Shown here piece by piece: positions 6,593 through 17,964 of a stretch of DNA of 19,497 nucleotides. This DNA is from a virus. Location of the stretch: the UHGV virus genome UHGV-0127427, one strand, 5' to 3'. Every line of letters begins with the position of its first letter. The stretch's first letter is position 1. Position numbers and translations under genes: made by a program. The notes beneath the pieces are model-generated. The model searched no databases, was not told the DNA's origin, and saw nothing but the letters and a program-made list of their open reading frames with translations.

Positions 6593-7624
6593 CTAATCGC
6601 CATCTTCCAGAAGGCGCACCATTGCCCCTGTTTCACTATCCAGGTTACGGATATAGTTCATGACAATATTTACGTTGGTCCAGCCACCAGCTTGCATGAT
6701 CTCCGGTATTGAAACTCCGGCACGGGCCATATCTCGCGCGGCTCCGACACGGGCACTGTGTCCAGACCAGGCCAGGTACCTCTGGCCAGAGTCATCCTTA
6801 GCCCCGTAAATCAATCGGTGAGTTGCTTCAAAAATCCCTTCCAGGGCGCGAGTTGATAGCTGGCTGGTGGGTGATGGCGAGGCAACACCATTTTTTCTGA
6901 CCCGGCAAAACAAGTAGTTATTCGGATCATCAGCCACACCAGAGACAGAAATCCATCGTTCGACCAGTTTAGTTACCCCCAGGCTAAGTGCCTTCTCTAC
7001 ACCCGCGGTACTAACCAGAGTTTTCGTTCTGCCAATATGGATTAGCATTCTCCCACCGTCTGTACGTGAGATATCTTTAACCCTGATCCTGGCAATTTCG
7101 GCTATACGTAACAGGGTGTTATAAGCGATCCCCAGAAATGCCAGATTACGTATATCCTGGCAGCGATCGCTATTTTCCATGAGTGAACGAACCTGGTCGA
7201 AATCAGTGCGTTCGAACGCCAATGCCTGTTTTGCACGTTCACCGGCATCAACGTTTTCTTTTCGAATCCGCCGCATGACCAGTGAAACAGCATTGCTGTC
7301 ACTTGGTCGTGGCAGCCCGGACCGACGATGAAGCATGTTTAGCTGGCCCAAATGTTGCTGGATAGTTTTTACTGCCAGACCGCGCGCCTGAAGATATAGA
7401 AGATAATCGCGAACATCTTCAGGTTCTGCGGGAAACCACTTCCGGTTATTCAACTTGCACCATGCCGCCCACGACCGGCAAACGGACAGAAGCATTTTCC
7501 AGGTATGCTCAGAAAACGCCTGGCGATCCCTGAACATGTCCATCAGGTTCTTGCGAACCTCATCACTCGTTGCATCGACCGGTAATGCAGGCAAATTTTG
7601 GTGTACGGTCAGTAAATTGGACAT
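6593..7624 (-). CDS. cre: Cre site-specific tyrosine recombinase, 343 aa
   Basis: 343-aa ORF starting MSNLLTVHQNLPALPVDATSDEVRKNLMDMFRDRQAFSEHTWKMLLSVCRSWAAWCKLNNRKWFPAEPEDVRDYLLYLQARGLAVKTIQQHLGQLNMLHRRSGLPRPSDSNAVSLVMRRIRKENVDAGERAKQALAFERTDFDQVRSLMENSDRCQDIRNLAFLGIAYNTLLRIAEIARIRVKDISRTDGGRMLIHIGRTKTLVSTAGVEKALSLGVTKLVERWISVSGVADDPNNYLFCRVRKNGVASPSPTSQLSTRALEGIFEATHRLIYGAKDDSGQRYLAWSGHSARVGAARDMARAGVSIPEIMQAGGWTNVNIVMNYIRNLDSETGAMVRLLEDGD, near-identical to P1 Cre as recalled; loxP lies 419 bp upstream. Confidence 0.97.
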   Translation of the reverse strand: MSNLLTVHQNLPALPVDATSDEVRKNLMDMFRDRQAFSEHTWKMLLSVCRSWAAWCKLNNRKWFPAEPEDVRDYLLYLQARGLAVKTIQQHLGQLNMLHRRSGLPRPSDSNAVSLVMRRIRKENVDAGERAKQALAFERTDFDQVRSLMENSDRCQDIRNLAFLGIAYNTLLRIAEIARIRVKDISRTDGGRMLIHIGRTKTLVSTAGVEKALSLGVTKLVERWISVSGVADDPNNYLFCRVRKNGVASPSPTSQLSTRALEGIFEATHRLIYGAKDDSGQRYLAWSGHSARVGAARDMARAGVSIPEIMQAGGWTNVNIVMNYIRNLDSETGAMVRLLEDGD

Positions 7625-8023: not shown

Positions 8024-8042
8024 ATGTTCAATAACCCTTAAG

Positions 8043-8076
8043 ATAACTTCGTATAATGTATGCTATACGAAGTTAT
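8043..8076 (-). other. loxP: loxP recombination site (34 bp: 13-bp inverted repeats flanking an 8-bp spacer)
   Basis: Exact ATAACTTCGTATA-ATGTATGC-TATACGAAGTTAT; spacer is the reverse complement of GCATACAT, so the site is inverted relative to the plus strand. Confidence 0.97.
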
Positions 8077-8119
8077 CAGGTCCGAAGAGGAGTTTACGTC
8101 CAGCTGCGCACAAAAATCA

Positions 8120-8777: not shown

Positions 8778-9629
8778 ATGATAAATTATGTCTACGGCGA
8801 ACAACTGTACCAGGAGTTCGTCAGCTTCAGGGATCTCTTTCTAAAAAAAGCTGTTGCACGCGCCCAACACGTTGATGCCGCCAGCGACGGTCGTCCTGTT
8901 CGCCCGGTTGTCGTTCTGCCGTTCAAAGAAACGGACAGCATTCAGGCTGAAATTGATAAATGGACTTTAATGGCGCGGGAACTGGAACAGTACCCAGACC
9001 TCAATATCCCAAAGACTATTTTATATCCAGTGCCTAACATCCTTCGCGGTGTACGTAAGGTTACAACTTATCAGACAGAAGCTGTGAACAGCGTCAACAT
9101 GACCGCTGGCCGCATTATTCATCTGATTGATAAGGATATTCGCATCCAAAAAAGCGCGGGGTTCAATGAGCACAGTGCGAAATACATAGAGAACCTGGAA
9201 GCAACAAAAGAGCTAATGAAGCAGTACCCGGAGGATGAAAAATTCCGTATGCGCGTACACGGCTTTAGCGAAACAATGCTGCGCGTCCACTACATTTCCA
9301 GTAGCCCTAACTACAATGATGGTAAATCAGTTAGTTACCATGTGCCACTGTGTGGCGTGTTTATCTGCGATGAAACCCTCCGTGATGGAATCATCATCAA
9401 CGGTGAATTCGAGAAAGCAAAATTTAGCCTTTATGACTCCATAGAACCGATCATCTGCGACCGCTGGCCGCAGGCAAAAATATATCGCCTGGCAGATATT
9501 GAAAATGTAAAAAAACAAATTGCCATCACTCGCGAAGAGAAAAAGGTCAAATCAGCCGCATCAGTTACGCGCAGTCGTAAAACTAAGAAGGGGCAGCCAG
9601 TAAACGACAACCCCGAAAGCGCGCAATAA
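8778..9629 (+). CDS. c1: C1 repressor of lysis, 283 aa
   Basis: 283-aa ORF starting MINYVYGEQLYQEFVSFRDLF behind GGAGGAGG; matches P1 C1 in length and N-terminus as recalled; multiple cognate operators in the window. Confidence 0.95.
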   Translation: MINYVYGEQLYQEFVSFRDLFLKKAVARAQHVDAASDGRPVRPVVVLPFKETDSIQAEIDKWTLMARELEQYPDLNIPKTILYPVPNILRGVRKVTTYQTEAVNSVNMTAGRIIHLIDKDIRIQKSAGFNEHSAKYIENLEATKELMKQYPEDEKFRMRVHGFSETMLRVHYISSSPNYNDGKSVSYHVPLCGVFICDETLRDGIIINGEFEKAKFSLYDSIEPIICDRWPQAKIYRLADIENVKKQIAITREEKKVKSAASVTRSRKTKKGQPVNDNPESAQ

Positions 9630-9661: not shown

Positions 9662-10429
9662 TTATTCAGCCGCCACCGGTTTTAACAAGCCAGCATCGAG
9701 CAGTTTACGCGTCAACCACTGTTGTCCTTTCCCCGTTAATTGGGGCGTCAGCCGTATCTGGTAGCCATCTTCATCATCCAGCACCACTTCTTTCACTGTG
9801 AAATATCCGGCGTTTATGTACTGCTGGAACGGCACATTTTTACGCCCGCCGGACGCTATCAGAATGCCGTTCTCCCGTAACCAGGCAAACAGCGCGTTTT
9901 GCTTCAGCCCAACAACCTTTGCAAAATTACCAATCAGGATCCCCTTAGCCACTGATACACGGTCGGCAAAATCGACCTTGGGGGCTGCGGCCACCAGTTG
10001 TTGATTTAGCTGGTGGGCCTTCTGTTCCAGTAGCTGCTTTTGTTCAGCCAGCTCGGCAGCCAGGCGCAAGGCTTCAGGTAGTGTTTGGGGGATTGCGACC
10101 GGTTGCTGTTCTTTTTGCCGGAAGTAGCTGTCTTCCAGTTTTTCAAAGAATGCCCATGCTTCATCTGTGTTTACGATCTTAGACATGCGTGCCGCTCCGC
10201 GTTCGGCCCAAAGAATTACCTGGCTTGTATATTTGCTAACCAGGTGACTAGTAGTCACCAGCCTTTTAAATTCCTTTAATTTTGAACCAGTTAAGAGATA
10301 GTAATGCTTACCTTCTTCAAAGCGATCGGAGTTGCGAGACAAATTTTTACGAATATTAGCTTCATCGGTTCCATAAGCGCAGATAAACATCGCGCTTATC
10401 GACATCCAGATGCGGGTATTCCTTTTCAA
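9662..10429 (-). CDS. phage antirepressor-like protein (ORF6N-type N-terminal region plus KilA-C/ANT-type C-terminal region); start uncertain (TTG 10429 or ATG 10405)
   Basis: N-terminal half AYGTDEANIRKNLSRNSDRFEEGKHYYLLTGSKLKEF...ILWAERGAARMSK and C-terminal half DRVSVAKGILIGNFAKVVGLKQNALFAWLRENGILIASGGRKNVPFQQYINAGYF are typical of phage antirepressors; sits where P1 has pacB/pacA/lpa. Confidence 0.65.
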   Translation of the reverse strand: MKRNTRIWMSISAMFICAYGTDEANIRKNLSRNSDRFEEGKHYYLLTGSKLKEFKRLVTTSHLVSKYTSQVILWAERGAARMSKIVNTDEAWAFFEKLEDSYFRQKEQQPVAIPQTLPEALRLAAELAEQKQLLEQKAHQLNQQLVAAAPKVDFADRVSVAKGILIGNFAKVVGLKQNALFAWLRENGILIASGGRKNVPFQQYINAGYFTVKEVVLDDEDGYQIRLTPQLTGKGQQWLTRKLLDAGLLKPVAAE

Positions 10430-10644: not shown

Positions 10645-11691
10645 TTATCTAACGCTCGACGAATGACTTGTGATAGCGCCGACTCCAAGCGCGTAATCAA
10701 AGAACAATCGTTGATGCATCGCCAGCCTACCGTGCGTCTTCTCCCAATTATCGCGGTCACGCTCAATATCACGCTGGCATGACTGGCACAGAGGAATAGC
10801 ATAAATGTCATGCGCGCATAATCGACTATAACGAACGATATAAGGCGTAATGTGAGCGCCAGCTCCCGCCGCTCCACACCCACAGCATGGACGGGAAGCA
10901 ACAAAGTCCATGTACTCAGGTAATTTTAGCGATTGCAGTTTTGGTATTTTGAAATGCGCCATACCTGGGTCGGAGTCAACATCCACAGGGCATACTTTTG
11001 CACGCATCGGCGCGGCGCGTTCTTCCATCATCTGAACATATGCTGTAGCGCGATCGTCATACGGGCGAATATCCGCCTCTTTCAGTGGTCCGCTATCCTG
11101 CGGAGTAGCCTTCATCTTATTTATTATTGATATGCGGCAGACTTCTTCCGGCATCAGGTGCATCATGTTGCGCATGAAAGCCCACCAGCACAGCTCCTGA
11201 ATACTTAAATCATGGCTATTTGAAAGGCCCATTTCCTGACGGGCGACATCCAGTATCCAGTTAACGCGATTATTGTGCAGCGTTTCTTTCAGCTCATTAA
11301 AACCACGCATCCGGTAATGGTTATCGTGATGCCAGCACAACAACACCGCGCTATTGTCTCGTTCAGCGTGGACAATATGGTTGTCACACCAACTACGATC
11401 TGCGGCCTGGCATTGACCCTCTTTCCTACGCAACCACGCCACCAGCGCGTCAATTCCACCAATACGGCGAAACAGTTCATCGCTGTTAAAAAACGGCTGC
11501 AACGCCTCATTTGTTGCCATGGTTTGCTCGGTAACAACGAGGCCGTCTTCCATGTGCTCGATTAACTCACGCGGCACCGGCTCCATAATAAATTTACGGC
11601 CAGCCTCCACCAGCTTTCTGACCTCCTGATCCACTTTGAACGTGGCGAGGCCAAGCTCTTTCTGTACAAAGGGAGTAATTACGGCTTTCAC
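10645..11691 (-). CDS. pdcB: PdcB-like protein (post-doc gene B position), 348 aa, GTG start, Cys-rich C-terminal region
   Basis: GTG 11691 preceded by AAGGTG at 4 nt; C-terminal CCGCG...C..C..C..C cluster suggests metal binding; assignment by position downstream of doc. Confidence 0.5.
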
Positions 11692-14082: not shown

Positions 14083-14618
14083 TCTATACAGGCATGTATA
14101 ACAACAACGAGCCTATTAGCTGTCAACAACGTTATTTCCTCAAATAAGAAAAAGCAGAAAACAAATTGTTTAAGGTCACAAATTGTGGCCTTGATGGAGG
14201 AGGGAGGCTTATTGGCTATGGCTAAAAATCAAATTAGACACTTCATGTTGCTGTAGCTCATCAAGATCCGAGGCCACAAAACCTTTTCCGAAAAACTTCA
14301 CAAGTAACTCACTAGCCGCATCATTGTCACCTATTACACGAAAGTCATACGGCAACGTCGCAAGTTGACGATGTAATCCTGCTGAGAAAGTCGAATCTAA
14401 CAGCGCCCAGAATTCCCACCGCAGGATAATACTCGCCTCTTAATACTGTATATATGTTGTTACGATATGTTTTTCTGTCTCTAAAAAAAGATGTTTGAAG
14501 GGGATAAAAATATACAATTCCAACAAACGTTATTTTTAACAATTTTTTTCTTTGCGTTGACTTTCCCGGACACCTTGTCTGACCGAAGGTGCGCGAAAGC
14601 CACTTTTTCCTTCCTGAG

Positions 14619-14639
14619 TTATCCACAAAGTTATGCACT
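14619..14639 (+). promoter_or_regulatory. two tandem DnaA-box-like 9-mers
   Basis: TTATCCACA (14619-14627, perfect consensus) and TTATGCACT (14631-14639, 8/9) in direct orientation, 3 bp apart, inside an AT-rich non-coding stretch. Confidence 0.4.
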
Positions 14640-14927
14640 TGCAAGAGGGCCATTTTCTACATATTGTGGTGGCTAACAGATGAAATGAATGTAGATTAAT
14701 TGAAGATAAGGAGAAAATTTGAGATGCAATCATGACGTTAATAGATAGGGTCTGCATTACAGACCCCACCCGCATCAAGGAATTAGCCGTTCCCTGATGT
14801 TTTTCCGAAAACATGTGCCGTAAGCTCACGTTAACGACTTTCATTCACCGAATCCAACTATATAGGGGTTGGGTTTCTACGTCAACGTGAGCAAGTGCAC
14901 CTTTACATTTGACAAGGAACCACCTGA

Positions 14928-15065
14928 ATGAACGCTTTTTTTCAGTTCCTGAGTGCATTTTTAGATGCGCCTATTATTAGCCAGATTCTGGCTATTATCC
15001 TCATCATCGTTTTGATTTTGCTTTTAAGGTCAGTAAAAAATGGAATTATGCACTGGCTTACTTAA
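14928..15065 (+). CDS. small hydrophobic peptide, 45 aa (single predicted transmembrane helix)
   Basis: MNAFFQFLSAFLDAPIISQILAIILIIVLILLLRSVKNGIMHWLT; AAGGAA 8 nt upstream of the ATG; a perfect 9-bp inverted repeat overlaps the stop codon. Confidence 0.3.
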   Translation: MNAFFQFLSAFLDAPIISQILAIILIIVLILLLRSVKNGIMHWLT

Positions 15066-15140
15066 TGTTTCAGTGAAACATTAAAATCTCCTTGATGTGG
15101 AAACAATCATTTTCTGTATGTGCTGGTGGGCACCTGTAGT

Positions 15141-15503
15141 TCAGCTTTCGTTGGCATTTAACTTCGTCTTTGCTTTCTCCACCAGCAACTTCCAGATGCC
15201 TATTTCATTAGCAGCCGCCTTGATGGCGGCATAAAAAGCATCTTGCTGATCGTAACGCTGGATCTGTTTTTTCAGTTTTGCCTCCACCAATTTAATTTCA
15301 TTACGTGCTTTCTGAAGCCGCATCACCGCCCGGTTACGTCTGTTCTTGTATAGCGTGTTAATCTCTGACAATTGCTTTAATTTACCAGCCTGACTGCGGA
15401 TTATCGCCTCCCTGGCTTCTGCCGTGCGTCTCATCTGATCTCTTAAGAGTTCACCGTTTTCGATAATTCTTTCAAGGTGTTTGATGTGATCTGCAACTCT
15501 CAT
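15141..15503 (-). CDS. hypothetical coiled-coil protein, 120 aa
   Basis: ORF whose start overlaps the upstream gene's stop (ATGA); heptad-rich, charged sequence. Confidence 0.5.
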   Translation of the reverse strand: MRVADHIKHLERIIENGELLRDQMRRTAEAREAIIRSQAGKLKQLSEINTLYKNRRNRAVMRLQKARNEIKLVEAKLKKQIQRYDQQDAFYAAIKAAANEIGIWKLLVEKAKTKLNANES

Positions 15504-16381
15504 ACTTCACCCTCGCTTGTATCACCAGCGTCCACCAACGACAATAAAGCCCTGGCCATCTTATGAACCAACAGTGCATCAATAATGCCAAGCGTATGCC
15601 CCGGCTTAATGTTTAATGCTGCCTCAAGATGACACCTTTCCAGACCGCTTTTCTCGGCTTGTTTATGATGATATGGCGTAATAACGTCGCCCAAAACACG
15701 GCTAATTCTTTCTCGTAATTGCTGGGTGCCAGCACACTTGATCGCTGTATCGTGGAGACGGTTAACCAGTTCGCGATAAACATGCGGCTTAATGCGGATA
15801 CGTTCACCGGTGACGCCCTTTCCTGGCGTAGGCACCGAACTATCCGGAATATCCGGATAGTTGCCAGCCAGTCTACGCAAAACAGCCTTAATTGCATCAA
15901 TACGGTCATCATCAACTTTTTCTACAATATTGGAATTTAAATACTTCGAAGCCTTGCTATGCCAATCGCTGGTTTTAGGGTCTTGTCCATCCATCAAACG
16001 CCAAGCTTCAGCGATTAACTCATAGCCAGTAACAGTGGCTTCCTGCGCATCACCAATCAGTTGTGTGATCTCTCTTTCAAGCATGCTTAGAGCGTTAGGC
16101 ATTGGTTTTTCTTCCGGTACTACTGGAACGGGGGGAGCGGCGTAGACCTCAATAATTCCATTATCAATAGGCCATTCTCCATCCTTGAGGTAGTCACTTG
16201 TGCCGTCAACTTGCTGTTCTGCAATGTGGAATGCACCTATTGGTTTTGCTTCCAGTGATGCCAGAGCAATTCGTGCCAGTTCTTCCGCTTCTTCTGCTGG
16301 CAGTACAACGTTGCTACCAGGTCCGTATGTTTCGCGCCACTGCTTGATTGTCAGTAGTCGCTCTTTGGTAATAGTGGTCAT
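15500..16381 (-). CDS. hypothetical protein, 293 aa
   Basis: ATG 16381 preceded by AGGAAA at 7 nt; no motif recognised. Confidence 0.55.
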   Translation of the reverse strand: MTTITKERLLTIKQWRETYGPGSNVVLPAEEAEELARIALASLEAKPIGAFHIAEQQVDGTSDYLKDGEWPIDNGIIEVYAAPPVPVVPEEKPMPNALSMLEREITQLIGDAQEATVTGYELIAEAWRLMDGQDPKTSDWHSKASKYLNSNIVEKVDDDRIDAIKAVLRRLAGNYPDIPDSSVPTPGKGVTGERIRIKPHVYRELVNRLHDTAIKCAGTQQLRERISRVLGDVITPYHHKQAEKSGLERCHLEAALNIKPGHTLGIIDALLVHKMARALLSLVDAGDTSEGEV

Positions 16382-17911: not shown

Positions 17912-17942
17912 AAAAAAATGCTGGTGGGCGCACTCCACCAGC
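17912..17942 (-). terminator. intrinsic terminator downstream of the 420-aa gene
   Basis: Minus-strand sense GCUGGUGG-AGUGCGC-CCACCAGC followed by AUUUUUUU. Confidence 0.5.
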
Positions 17943-17964
17943 ATTAAAAGTGACACTGTAACTA

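What the first reader, a model, noticed from the sequence alone, without database searches (positions are those of the whole stretch)
14928..15083. 45-aa hydrophobic peptide gene ending in a perfect 9-bp inverted repeat
A small single-helix membrane peptide with a plausible RBS stands alone on the plus strand. Its stop codon is embedded in TAATGTTTC-AGT-GAAACATTA (15063-15083). Small hydrophobic peptides in phage accessory regions are often toxins (type I TA), holin-like proteins or superinfection-exclusion factors.
Basis: inference. Interest (0 to 1): 0.45.

Follow-up and report, generated by a model that had tools for sequence, protein, structure and literature searches.

The report
Candidate antisense-controlled membrane peptide in P1
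An unannotated 45-residue membrane-peptide reading frame in a P1/P7-type phage-plasmid sits in a conserved 540-bp cassette with a host-derived DnaA-box promoter and a predicted antisense RNA, so it looks like an RNA-controlled toxin module, but neither expression nor toxicity has been shown.

Summary
The ORF at 14928-15065 (+) exists, with an AAGGA Shine-Dalgarno 9 nt upstream. Its TAA stop lies in a palindrome that is longer than reported: 11+11 nt with a 1-nt spacer, at 15062-15084.

The window is a P1/P7-type phage-plasmid. The ORF lies between the pmgV homologue and P1's annotated 'upfM', which is antisense to the ORF's start.

75 of 79 related loci keep an intact 45-codon frame. That includes a lineage only 76% identical in DNA and 58% in protein, with the same start, stop, hydrophobic helix and basic tail. 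The frames of upfM and upfN are broken in that lineage.

Statistical support for coding is only moderate (dN/dS 0.41; joint simulation p about 0.03).

The context says more. About 250 nt upstream, a copy of the E. coli nrdA promoter with two DnaA boxes points at the ORF. Between them lies a non-coding block that is 87-97% conserved. It holds the only promoter-like site invariant in all lineages, on the opposite strand, which predicts a ~110-nt three-hairpin antisense RNA.

The best reading is a type-I-toxin-like module with an orphan peptide family (confidence 0.4). The palindrome is not a canonical terminator and is only partly conserved.

The parts
14560..14657 (+). Segment 99% identical to the E. 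coli chromosome just upstream of nrdA (the ypaB region). It carries the DnaA boxes and the -35 hexamer.
   Evidence: The P1 record notes a shorter 56-bp, 94% match.
14619..14639 (+). Two DnaA boxes: TTATCCACA at 14619-14627 and TTATGCACT at 14631-14639. Both are invariant in all three lineages.
   Evidence: Sequence; alignments; 'dnaA box' feature in GenBank M95666.
14639..14667 (+). nrdA-like sigma-70 promoter, TTGCAA-17-TATTGT (TACTGT in the diverged lineage). It has the same geometry as E. coli nrdA (TTGCAA-17-TATCTT) and points at the ORF. The predicted start of transcription is near 14674.
   Evidence: (annotated 'nrdA-like promoter'). It scores only 8 of 12 (7 of 12 in the diverged lineage).
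14700..14893 (.). Strongly conserved non-coding block, 87-97% identical between the deep lineages apart from a dip to 0.77-0.83 at 14745-14803. The ORF body is 63-77% identical. No reading frame on either strand is conserved through the block.
14707..14797 (+). Strong SD (TAAGGAG), then either a mini-ORF ATG-CAA-TCA-TGA (P1/P7) or a start-stop ATG-TAA (diverged), overlapping a 21-codon upstream ORF (14732-14797). That ORF is open in both clades but changes almost only non-synonymously.
14857..14885 (-). Antisense promoter TTGACG-17-TATAGT, the 'PupfN' of the P1 annotation. It is the only promoter-like site found at the same position in all three lineages compared, with both hexamers invariant in every variant aligned. 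The predicted start is near 14850.
14740..14851 (-). Predicted ~110-nt antisense RNA with three stem-loops, fully complementary to the ORF's predicted leader. The last GC-rich hairpin (14743-14771) is followed by UAUCUAUU-type sequence.
   Evidence: Fold of -43.2 kcal/mol with z -4.5, against -29.1 and z -2.8 for the + strand of the same segment. The diverged lineage gives the same three hairpins at -37.5, z -3.5. One compensatory U-A to C-G change.
14825..14891 (+). Long imperfect hairpin in the predicted leader (CTCACGTTAACGAC ... GTCAACGTGAG, with inner stem AATCCAAC/GTTGGGTT). It is nearly invariant in all lineages and contains the antisense promoter.
   Evidence: (consensus fold).
14914..14918 (+). 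Shine-Dalgarno of the 45-aa ORF: AAGGA with a 9-nt spacer here, GAGGA with an 8-nt spacer in the diverged lineage. It is predicted mostly paired in the full-length leader (unpaired probability 0.22-0.26, against a mean of 0.40).
14928..15065 (+). The 45-aa hydrophobic ORF of the finding.
   Evidence: PGAP calls it in some plasmids: WP_000123562.1 and WP_162883679.1.
15062..15084 (.). Perfect 23-bp palindrome (11+11 nt, 1-nt spacer) that includes the stop codon. It is AU-rich with no U-tract on either strand.
14845..14958 (-). Homologue of P1 'upfM' (37 aa), antisense to the ORF's start. Its frame is not kept in the diverged lineage, so it is probably not a gene.
15141..15503 (-). pmgV homologue, convergent with the ORF. 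The conserved cassette ends near 15131. The diverged lineage has an unrelated lipoprotein-like gene in this position.

Best explanation
The ORF is a real gene for a 45-residue single-pass inner-membrane peptide. The predicted topology is N-terminus out and basic C-tail in.

It belongs to a discrete cassette of about 540 bp (roughly 14589-15131) carried by P1/P7-type phage-plasmids.

Proposed mechanism, all inferred:
1. A host-derived, DnaA-box-bearing copy of the nrdA promoter starts a + strand mRNA near 14674.
2. This mRNA has a structured leader of about 250 nt, then the ORF, and ends around the AU-rich hairpin that overlaps the stop codon.
3. A strong, invariant promoter on the opposite strand inside the leader makes a three-hairpin antisense RNA of about 110 nt.
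4. That RNA pairs perfectly with the leader and keeps peptide synthesis off. Plausible routes are duplex cleavage, or blocking ribosome loading or leader-ORF translation.

This is the layout of a type I toxin-antitoxin module, closest in arrangement to ldr/rdl and hok/sok. The toxin family is an orphan, and the toxin promoter could be tied to DnaA status.

Shown here: the ORF, its conservation, the promoter-like elements, the fold energies, and the co-occurrence of the parts.
Inferred: transcription of both strands, translation, repression, and toxicity.
For: ORF conservation:
- 75 of 79 loci keep the intact 45-codon frame.
- The diverged lineage differs at 33 of 138 nt, yet has no indel and keeps the same ATG, the same TAA, an SD, a hydrophobic core and a basic tail.
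- In the helix codons only 1 of 15 changes falls on codon position 2.
- The competing annotated frames upfM and upfN are broken in that lineage.
- PGAP calls the ORF in some records.

Upstream promoter:
- The nrdA-like promoter and DnaA boxes are oriented toward the ORF and present in all lineages.

Antisense element:
- The non-coding block between promoter and ORF is more conserved than the ORF itself.
- It holds the only invariant high-scoring promoter, 10 of 12, on the antisense strand.
- The antisense strand folds far better than the sense strand: -43.2 kcal/mol (z -4.5) against -29.1 (z -2.8). The fold is kept in the diverged lineage.

Cassette behaviour:
- The same number of plasmids (229) is recovered by a query over the block and by an overlapping query over the ORF.
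- The flanks differ between lineages.

Other:
- Three independent insertions, at least two of them IS1, hit the ORF's 3' third.
Against: - There are no expression, translation or toxicity data, and no literature on this ORF was found.
- The coding statistics are weak. dN/dS is 0.41, but other frames give similar values. Changes by codon position are 12/8/13. The chance that the frame stays open with a start codon under random placement of the same substitutions is 0.13-0.19. The BLOSUM test gives p = 0.08, and the joint test about 0.03.
- Only two deep lineages exist, so covariation is not significant: one compensatory pair, and 92 of 500 shuffles do as well.
- The + strand promoter is mediocre, 8 of 12, or 7 of 12 in the diverged lineage.
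- The antisense RNA lacks a clean U-tract terminator.
- There is no match to any known type I toxin or antitoxin family.
- T-rich DNA generates hydrophobic ORFs by chance.
- The C-terminal tail is variable and sometimes frameshifted.
Confidence: 0.4

Rival explanations
1. The ORF is not translated. It is a chance open frame in T-rich DNA lying in a regulatory or non-coding RNA region. What selection conserves is the DnaA-box promoter, the structured block and its antisense promoter, for example to control transcription toward hot or across the pmgV boundary. The frame stays open because divergence is limited.
For: - The non-coding block is much better conserved than the ORF.
- The codon-position pattern is flat, 12/8/13, and other frames show similar dN/dS.
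- The frame stays open by chance in 13-31% of simulations.
- P1 and P7 annotators, and PGAP for the P7-type, do not call the ORF.
- No homologue exists outside this element family in 5.8 and 1.8 billion protein sets.
- Frameshifted variants exist.
- A conserved hairpin lies inside the ORF at 14953-14970.
Against: - The same ATG, the same stop, no indel and a conserved SD are all kept across 24% divergence, while the flanks carry indels.
- Hydrophobic-to-hydrophobic replacements and a retained basic tail are seen, with a joint p of about 0.03.
- The ORF frame gives the best BLOSUM excess among the six frames.
- The P7-type lineage lacks hot but keeps the whole cassette.
Confidence: 0.3
2. The ORF encodes a genuine small membrane protein that is not a toxin. 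It would be an accessory factor that modulates a host membrane process or phage-plasmid physiology, possibly still tuned by the antisense RNA and DnaA.
For: - It shares the conservation evidence of the best explanation.
- From general knowledge, many small single-pass bacterial proteins are regulators rather than toxins.
- The N-terminal 15 residues, FFQFLSAFL(D/N)AP, are the best conserved part of the peptide.
- From general knowledge, the published P1 addiction work on a fragment that includes this ORF assigned addiction to phd-doc. Here, only places the ORF within GenBank M95666.
Against: - The layout of a long leader, a cis-antisense RNA and a very hydrophobic short peptide on a plasmid-prophage next to phd-doc is the classic type I arrangement.
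- Repeated IS insertions in the ORF are what one often sees for toxic genes.
- Nothing here distinguishes toxic from non-toxic.
Confidence: 0.2
3. This rival concerns the palindrome only. The 23-bp dyad is a DNA-level or boundary element: a binding site for a dimeric protein, or the stop signal of the convergent pmgTUV operon. It would not be part of the peptide gene's own logic.
For: - It is a perfect 11+11 dyad lying between convergent genes.
- The P1 annotators' predicted promoters P1upfM and P2upfM overlap it.
- It folds slightly better on the minus strand, z -2.2 against -1.6.
- Partial dyad retention in the diverged lineage includes one T-A to C-G double change.
- The half-site GTTTCAC resembles the ParB box A heptamer ATTTCAC. 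That heptamer is recalled from memory and was not tested.
Against: - There is no U-tract on either strand and the stem is AU-rich, so it is not a canonical terminator.
- The commonest P1-type variant has a 1-nt deletion in one arm.
- No candidate binding protein was identified.
- Part of the left arm is constrained simply by being the ORF's last codon and its stop.
Confidence: 0.15

Closest known systems
ldr/rdl type I toxin-antitoxin loci of E. coli (Kawano et al. 2002; from general knowledge)
   Same: - A short peptide with one hydrophobic helix and a basic C-terminal tail.
- An mRNA with a long 5' leader.
- A short cis-encoded antisense RNA overlapping the leader rather than the coding region.
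- By eye, a shared D...AP(I/V)(I/L) motif near residue 13-17. This was recalled, not tested.
   Different: - No detectable sequence relationship: BLASTP found no alignment and Pfam and NCBIfam gave no hits.
- No Rfam match for the RNA.
- This module is plasmid-prophage-borne rather than in chromosomal long direct repeats.
- The predicted promoter is host-derived and carries DnaA boxes.
- Toxicity is unknown.
hok/sok (and relatives pnd, srnB, flm) plasmid type I systems
   Same: - A plasmid-borne hydrophobic peptide of about 50 aa.
- A long structured mRNA with an upstream small reading frame.
- An antisense RNA against the leader.
- A predicted 5'-3' long-range pairing: 14770-14781 with 15087-15098 in the window's own fold, and UAAGG at 14707-14711 with CCUUG near 15090 in the consensus fold.
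   Different: - No HOK_GEF domain.
- The upstream ORF ends 130 nt before the peptide's start, so mok-type translational coupling is unlikely.
- The long-range pairing is short and shows no covariation.
- No Sok-like Rfam hit.
tisB/istR-1 and dinQ/agrB (stress-promoter-driven type I toxins)
   Same: The toxin would be transcribed from a promoter under a global DNA-status regulator, with a constitutive small RNA made from a divergent or antisense promoter that acts on the leader.
   Different: - The regulator implied here is DnaA, through the nrdA-type boxes, not LexA.
- The antisense RNA is a true cis-overlapping transcript.
- The peptide is longer and unrelated in sequence.
E. coli nrdAB promoter region
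   Same: 98 nt are 99% identical, including both DnaA boxes and the -35 hexamer. The 17-nt spacer and the -10 position are also the same.
   Different: Homology stops before the -10 hexamer (TATTGT against TATCTT). Everything downstream of the homology end at 14657 fails to align with the nrdA leader. Instead of nrdA, a peptide cassette follows.
P1 annotated genes upfM / upfN (Lobocka et al. 2004 annotation, NC_005856)
   Same: They occupy the same DNA. upfM overlaps the ORF's first 31 nt on the opposite strand, and 'PupfN' is the antisense promoter described here.
   Different: Their reading frames are not conserved in the diverged lineage. The + strand ORF is conserved there.

Membership tests
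Type I toxin-antitoxin system (generic) | Toxin is a small (under 60 aa) hydrophobic peptide with a transmembrane helix | tested here: met
   45 aa; the best 18-residue hydropathy is 3.36 in the window and 2.84 in the diverged lineage. Whether it is translated is not shown.
Type I toxin-antitoxin system (generic) | An antisense or adjacent small RNA complementary to the toxin mRNA | tested here: inconclusive
   An invariant TTGACG-17-TATAGT promoter lies antisense in the predicted leader. The predicted RNA is stable and its fold is conserved. Covariation is not significant, and there are no expression data.
Type I toxin-antitoxin system (generic) | The peptide is toxic when expressed, and the RNA prevents its synthesis | not testable with these tools
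   This needs inducible expression and rescue experiments.
Known type I toxin families (Hok/Gef, Ldr, Fst, TisB, Ibs, ShoB, DinQ, ZorO and others, as far as Pfam and NCBIfam model them) | Significant match to the family profile | tested here: not met
   No such family was hit at E up to 10 in Pfam or NCBIfam, for either lineage's peptide. Searches of 5.8 and 1.8 billion proteins return only this family.
Known antitoxin or sRNA families in Rfam (whichever type I antitoxin RNAs, such as Sok, Rdl, IstR or Sib, and the P1 c4 RNA, are in release 15) | Covariance-model match | tested here: not met
   No hit at gathering score in the whole window. Only chance-level hits, E above 0.6, in 14100-15300.
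hok/sok-type architecture | A leader ORF (mok) overlapping and translationally coupled to the toxin ORF | tested here: not met
   The upstream ORF at 14732-14797 ends 130 nt before ATG 14928.
Holin | A membrane protein encoded with lysis genes (endolysin, spanin), usually at least 60 aa with characteristic transmembrane topology | tested here: not met
   The annotated neighbours in the equivalent P1 and P7 regions are pmgV, lxr-like genes, humD and phd-doc, with no lysis gene. The peptide is 45 aa with a single helix.
Rho-independent terminator (for the palindrome) | A GC-rich stem followed by a U-tract | tested here: not met
   It was not reported by the terminator scan. The stem is AU-rich, at -7 to -11 kcal/mol. 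The tails are AAAAUCUCC on the + strand and GUAAGCC on the - strand.
E. coli nrdA-type DnaA-regulated promoter | Two DnaA boxes immediately upstream of or overlapping the -35 hexamer, with the same hexamer geometry | tested here: met
   99% identity over 98 nt to the nrdA upstream region. TTGCAA-17-TATTGT aligns with TTGCAA-17-TATCTT, and GenBank M95666 annotates it as such. Activity and DnaA control were not tested.
P1 gene upfM (the existing annotation of this DNA) | Reading frame conserved in related elements | tested here: not met
   No minus-strand ORF of at least 25 aa lies at the equivalent place in the diverged lineage. A 1-nt indel near 14918 shifts the frame.

The most novel reading that the evidence does not exclude
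P1/P7-type phage-plasmids carry a previously unrecognised second addiction or abortive module: an orphan type I toxin whose transcription is wired to the host's DnaA and replication status through a captured nrdA promoter. A constitutive cis-antisense RNA holds it in check. The element could then sense replication stress, loss of DnaA-ATP control, or its own loss, and respond by membrane poisoning.
Probability: 0.12. Interest if true: 0.7.

Novelty: new member of a known kind. Interest (0 to 1): 0.45.

Why it matters
P1 is one of the most intensively studied phages, and P1-like phage-plasmids are common carriers of resistance genes in Enterobacteriaceae. This cassette is in 216 of 5426 complete E. 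coli genomes.

If the reading is right, three things follow:
- The classic P1 annotation of this kilobase (upfM, upfN) would be wrong. It would be replaced by an unannotated membrane peptide gene plus a small antisense RNA.
- P1 would have an RNA-controlled toxin next to phd-doc.
- It would be an example of a mobile element capturing a host cell-cycle promoter (nrdA, with DnaA boxes) to drive an accessory gene.

All of this can be tested directly with simple experiments in any P1 lysogen. If the ORF proves untranslated, the strongly conserved antisense-promoter block still needs an explanation.

Tried and rejected
- **Homologues outside the P1 family.** None were found. tblastn against phages and plasmids returned only close relatives. 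The word-indexed protein search found 2 hits, both variants of the same peptide. The full HMMER scan of 1.84 billion representatives found 4 hits, all the same family. GTDB species genomes gave nothing by peptide pattern or DNA pattern. Metagenomes returned the same three lineages only.
- **Family libraries.** Pfam, PHROGs, NCBIfam and PADLOC gave nothing significant. The best was phrog_1184, of unknown function, at E = 0.058.
- **Rfam.** No hits.
- **Antisense promoter at the palindrome or inside the ORF.** CTGAAA-17-CATAAT at 15073..15045 is present in P1 and P7 but lost in the diverged lineage, so I rejected it as the conserved antitoxin promoter.
- **A + strand promoter close to the ORF.** TTTACA and TTGACA at 14902-14913 have no usable -10 hexamer, and TTGACA is mutated in some variants.
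- **Palindrome as terminator.** Rejected.
- **upfM, upfN and the 21-codon upstream ORF as protein genes.** The first two have broken frames, and the third changes almost only non-synonymously.
- **Ldr-like motif resemblance.** Not supported by BLASTP or Pfam.
- **An analogous cassette in phage D6.** Absent; a different 116-aa gene sits there.
- **Literature.** The Lobocka 2004 P1 genome paper is not held in the library. No paper mentions this ORF, its accession, or a P1 transcriptome of this region. One literature query failed on a too-short term.
- **Chromosomal copies in E. coli.** None apart from the nrdA promoter piece.

Full report
**1. What the window is**

The region around the finding matches phage P7 and many E. 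coli, Salmonella and Shigella plasmids at 98.5-100% identity, and phage P1 at about 96%. The window is therefore a P1/P7-type phage-plasmid, read in the opposite orientation to the P1 map.

In P1 terms the ORF lies between pmgV (window 15141-15503, minus strand) and the annotated genes upfM-upfN-upfO-hot. P1's upfM, a 37-aa frame at window 14845-14958 on the minus strand, overlaps the ORF's first 31 nt in antisense.

Neither the P1 nor the P7 annotation, nor PGAP on records identical to the window, calls the + strand ORF. PGAP does call it in P1-type plasmids (WP_000123562.1) and in one diverged plasmid (WP_162883679.1).

**2. The observation**

The ORF runs from ATG 14928 to TAA 15063-15065 and encodes MNAFFQFLSAFLDAPIISQILAIILIIVLILLLRSVKNGIMHWLT. 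An AAGGA motif lies 9 nt upstream.

The hydropathy fits one transmembrane helix, with an 18-residue mean of 3.36, followed by a basic tail.

The inverted repeat is real and larger than reported: 11-nt perfect arms with a 1-nt spacer, at 15062-15084.

An ORF of this size is not significant on its own, since there are dozens of similar ones nearby. T-rich DNA also gives hydrophobic frames easily.

**3. Conservation of the frame**

I collected 79 copies of the region from annotated records, IMG/VR and metagenomes. They fall into three lineages:
- P7-type, which is the window's own.
- P1-type, with 2 amino-acid differences.
- A diverged lineage, 76% identical in DNA over the ORF and 58% in protein.

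75 of the 79 copies have an intact 45-codon frame.

The diverged peptide is MIVFFQFLSAFLNAPVLSQVLAIVFIVVLIWFFKSVINRGVRWLI. It has the same ATG, the same TAA position and no indel. Its SD is GAGGA with an 8-nt spacer. All helix replacements are hydrophobic, and the tail is still basic.

The frames of upfM and upfN are broken in that lineage.

The exceptions are these:
- Two loci lose one T of a T7 run. One is an assembly whose neighbouring pmgV is also truncated, so sequencing error is likely.
- One locus gains an A near the 3' end.
- There are three insertions in the 3' third. Two are IS1, one after codon 39 and one after codon 36 in the other clade. The third, of unidentified origin, is after codon 31.

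**4. How strong the coding evidence is**

It is only moderate.
- The 33 differences fall 12/8/13 on codon positions 1, 2 and 3.
- dN/dS is 0.41, but two other frames give similar or lower values.
- Random placement of the same substitutions leaves the frame open in 27-31% of trials, and open with a start codon in 13-19%.
- The BLOSUM score exceeds the null with p = 0.08. This is the best of the six frames.
- In the helix codons only 1 of 15 changes hits position 2 (simulated p about 0.1).
- The joint event of an open frame, a kept ATG and kept hydropathy has p about 0.03.

With only two deep lineages there is no more power to be had. I put the probability that the ORF is translated at roughly two in three.

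**5.

*A host-derived promoter pointing at the ORF.* Window 14560-14657 is 99% identical to the E. coli chromosome just upstream of nrdA, and every one of 5426 genomes has the match.
- It carries two DnaA boxes (14619-14627 and 14631-14639) and a -35 hexamer TTGCAA.
- A 17-nt spacer and TATTGT follow. E. coli has TTGCAA-17-TATCTT at the aligned position.
- The element points toward the ORF and is present in all three lineages.
- The 1993 GenBank entry M95666 already labels it 'nrdA-like promoter' with a 'dnaA box'.
- A transcript from it would start near 14674 and carry a leader of about 250 nt.

*A conserved non-coding block.* The stretch at 14700-14893 is 87-97% identical between the deep lineages, apart from a dip to 0.77-0.83 at 14745-14803. 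The ORF body is 63-77% identical. No frame on either strand is conserved through it.

*An invariant antisense promoter.* Inside that block, on the opposite strand, lies TTGACG-17-TATAGT at 14885..14857. It scores 10 of 12. It is the only promoter-like site found at the same position in all three lineages compared, and both hexamers are unchanged in every variant aligned. This is the 'PupfN' of the P1 annotation.

*The RNA it predicts.* The transcript would run from about 14850 to about 14740.
- It folds into three hairpins at -43.2 kcal/mol, z -4.5.
- The sense strand of the same segment reaches only -29.1, z -2.8. The difference comes from G-U pairs that become A-C mismatches on the other strand.
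- The diverged lineage gives the same three hairpins at -37.5, z -3.5.
- There is one U-A to C-G compensatory change, and several of the remaining changes fall in loops and linkers.
- Formally the covariation is not significant: 92 of 500 shuffles do as well.

*Cassette behaviour.* A query over the block and an overlapping query over the ORF each recover 229 plasmids. The unit has different neighbours in different lineages: on the right, pmgV or an unrelated lipoprotein-like gene; on the left, hot or no hot. It behaves as a discrete cassette of about 540 bp.

**6. The palindrome**

It is AU-rich, at -7 to -11 kcal/mol, and has no U-tract on either strand. The terminator scan does not report it.

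The commonest P1-type variant has lost one T from the left arm. The diverged lineage keeps 8 of 11 dyad positions, with one double change that preserves pairing.

It may be a 3' hairpin of the peptide mRNA, a boundary element between the convergent ORF and pmgV, or a protein site. I could not decide between these. It is not the key feature of the locus.

**7. Mechanism**

The arrangement has five parts: a regulated promoter, a long structured leader, a short cis-antisense RNA made from a strong constitutive promoter inside that leader, a very hydrophobic short peptide with a basic tail, and a plasmid-prophage location next to phd-doc. This is the type I toxin-antitoxin layout, closest to ldr/rdl and hok/sok.

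In folds of the full-length mRNA the ORF's SD is mostly paired in all three lineages, with unpaired probability 0.22-0.26 against a mean of 0.40.

The folds also predict pairing between the 5' and 3' ends of the mRNA. In the window's own fold 14770-14781 pairs with 15087-15098. In the consensus fold UAAGG at 14707-14711 pairs with CCUUG near 15090. This resembles hok fold-back inhibition but has no covariation behind it.

I therefore propose an antisense-repressed membrane peptide, probably toxic, with transcription possibly coupled to DnaA status. Every functional step is inferred.

**8. Comparison with known families**

The peptide matches no Pfam, NCBIfam, PHROG or PADLOC family. No Rfam family matches the RNA. 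No relative exists outside P1-like elements in the large protein sets or in GTDB genomes.

It therefore works like a type I system but belongs to no described toxin or antitoxin family. The holin and superinfection-exclusion readings have no specific support.

I found no literature on it. Table entries in one paper cite a deletion survey that classed upfM, the DNA overlapping the ORF's start, as non-essential.

**9. Verdict**

Novelty: a candidate new member of a known kind, namely a type I-like module with an orphan toxin. It has an unusual captured host promoter and sits in a very well-studied phage.

The evidence is entirely computational, and the coding and covariation statistics are weak. 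I give 0.4 confidence to the full model and an interest score of 0.45.

Noticed in passing
window 8042-8077 and 6593-7624 (-): A perfect 14+14 nt inverted repeat with an 8-nt spacer, GATAACTTCGTATA...TATACGAAGTTATC, which is loxP. It lies next to a 343-aa tyrosine-recombinase ORF, presumably cre.
   Followed up: partly
window 14560-14657: 98 nt are 99% identical to the E. coli chromosome upstream of nrdA (the ypaB region). P1 itself shares only 56 bp at 94%. This suggests repeated recombination of this promoter piece with the host chromosome in the P7-type lineage.
   Followed up: partly
window 9662-10429 (-), between the pdcB-like ORF (10645-11691) and the c1-sized ORF (8778-9629): A KilAC/ANT antirepressor-domain ORF sits where P1 has lpa-pacA-pacB. 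No pac-sized ORFs are seen in this part of the window, so this element may be rearranged or packaging-defective.
   Followed up: no
window 14083-14590: The P7-type lineage has no hot (Pol III theta homologue) gene between the lxr-like genes and the cassette, unlike P1 and the diverged lineage. P7 itself carries IS903 there.
   Followed up: partly
L010 about 1615-1640; proteins P0002 and P0003: There are at least three independent insertions into the 3' third of the 45-aa ORF. Two are IS1, in different lineages, after codons 39 and 36. A third insertion follows codon 31, and IS26 lies just downstream in L008. This is either an insertion hot spot or selection against the intact peptide.
   Followed up: partly
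window 14707-14797 (+): A strong SD (TAAGGAG) is followed by a 3-codon mini-ORF whose stop overlaps the ATG of a 21-codon ORF. In the diverged lineage the mini-ORF is a bare start-stop (ATG-TAA). The 21-codon frame is open in both clades but changes almost only non-synonymously.
   Followed up: partly
window 14953-14970 (+), inside the ORF: A small conserved hairpin, GTGCATT-TTTA-GATGCGC, is followed by a T-rich stretch. It is the only terminator-like hit in the region, and its closing pair changes from G-U to A-U in the diverged lineage. It could attenuate the + strand transcript before the helix-coding part.
   Followed up: no
window 15838-15862 and 17917-17945: Two further perfect 11-nt inverted repeats with short loops lie inside or near the pmgT/U-like and pap-like genes (I9 and I6).
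   Followed up: no
L081 (phage D6) 1870-2220: D6 lacks the cassette. Between its pmgU-like genes and hot it has a 116-aa + strand gene that is also found in RCS47.
   Followed up: no
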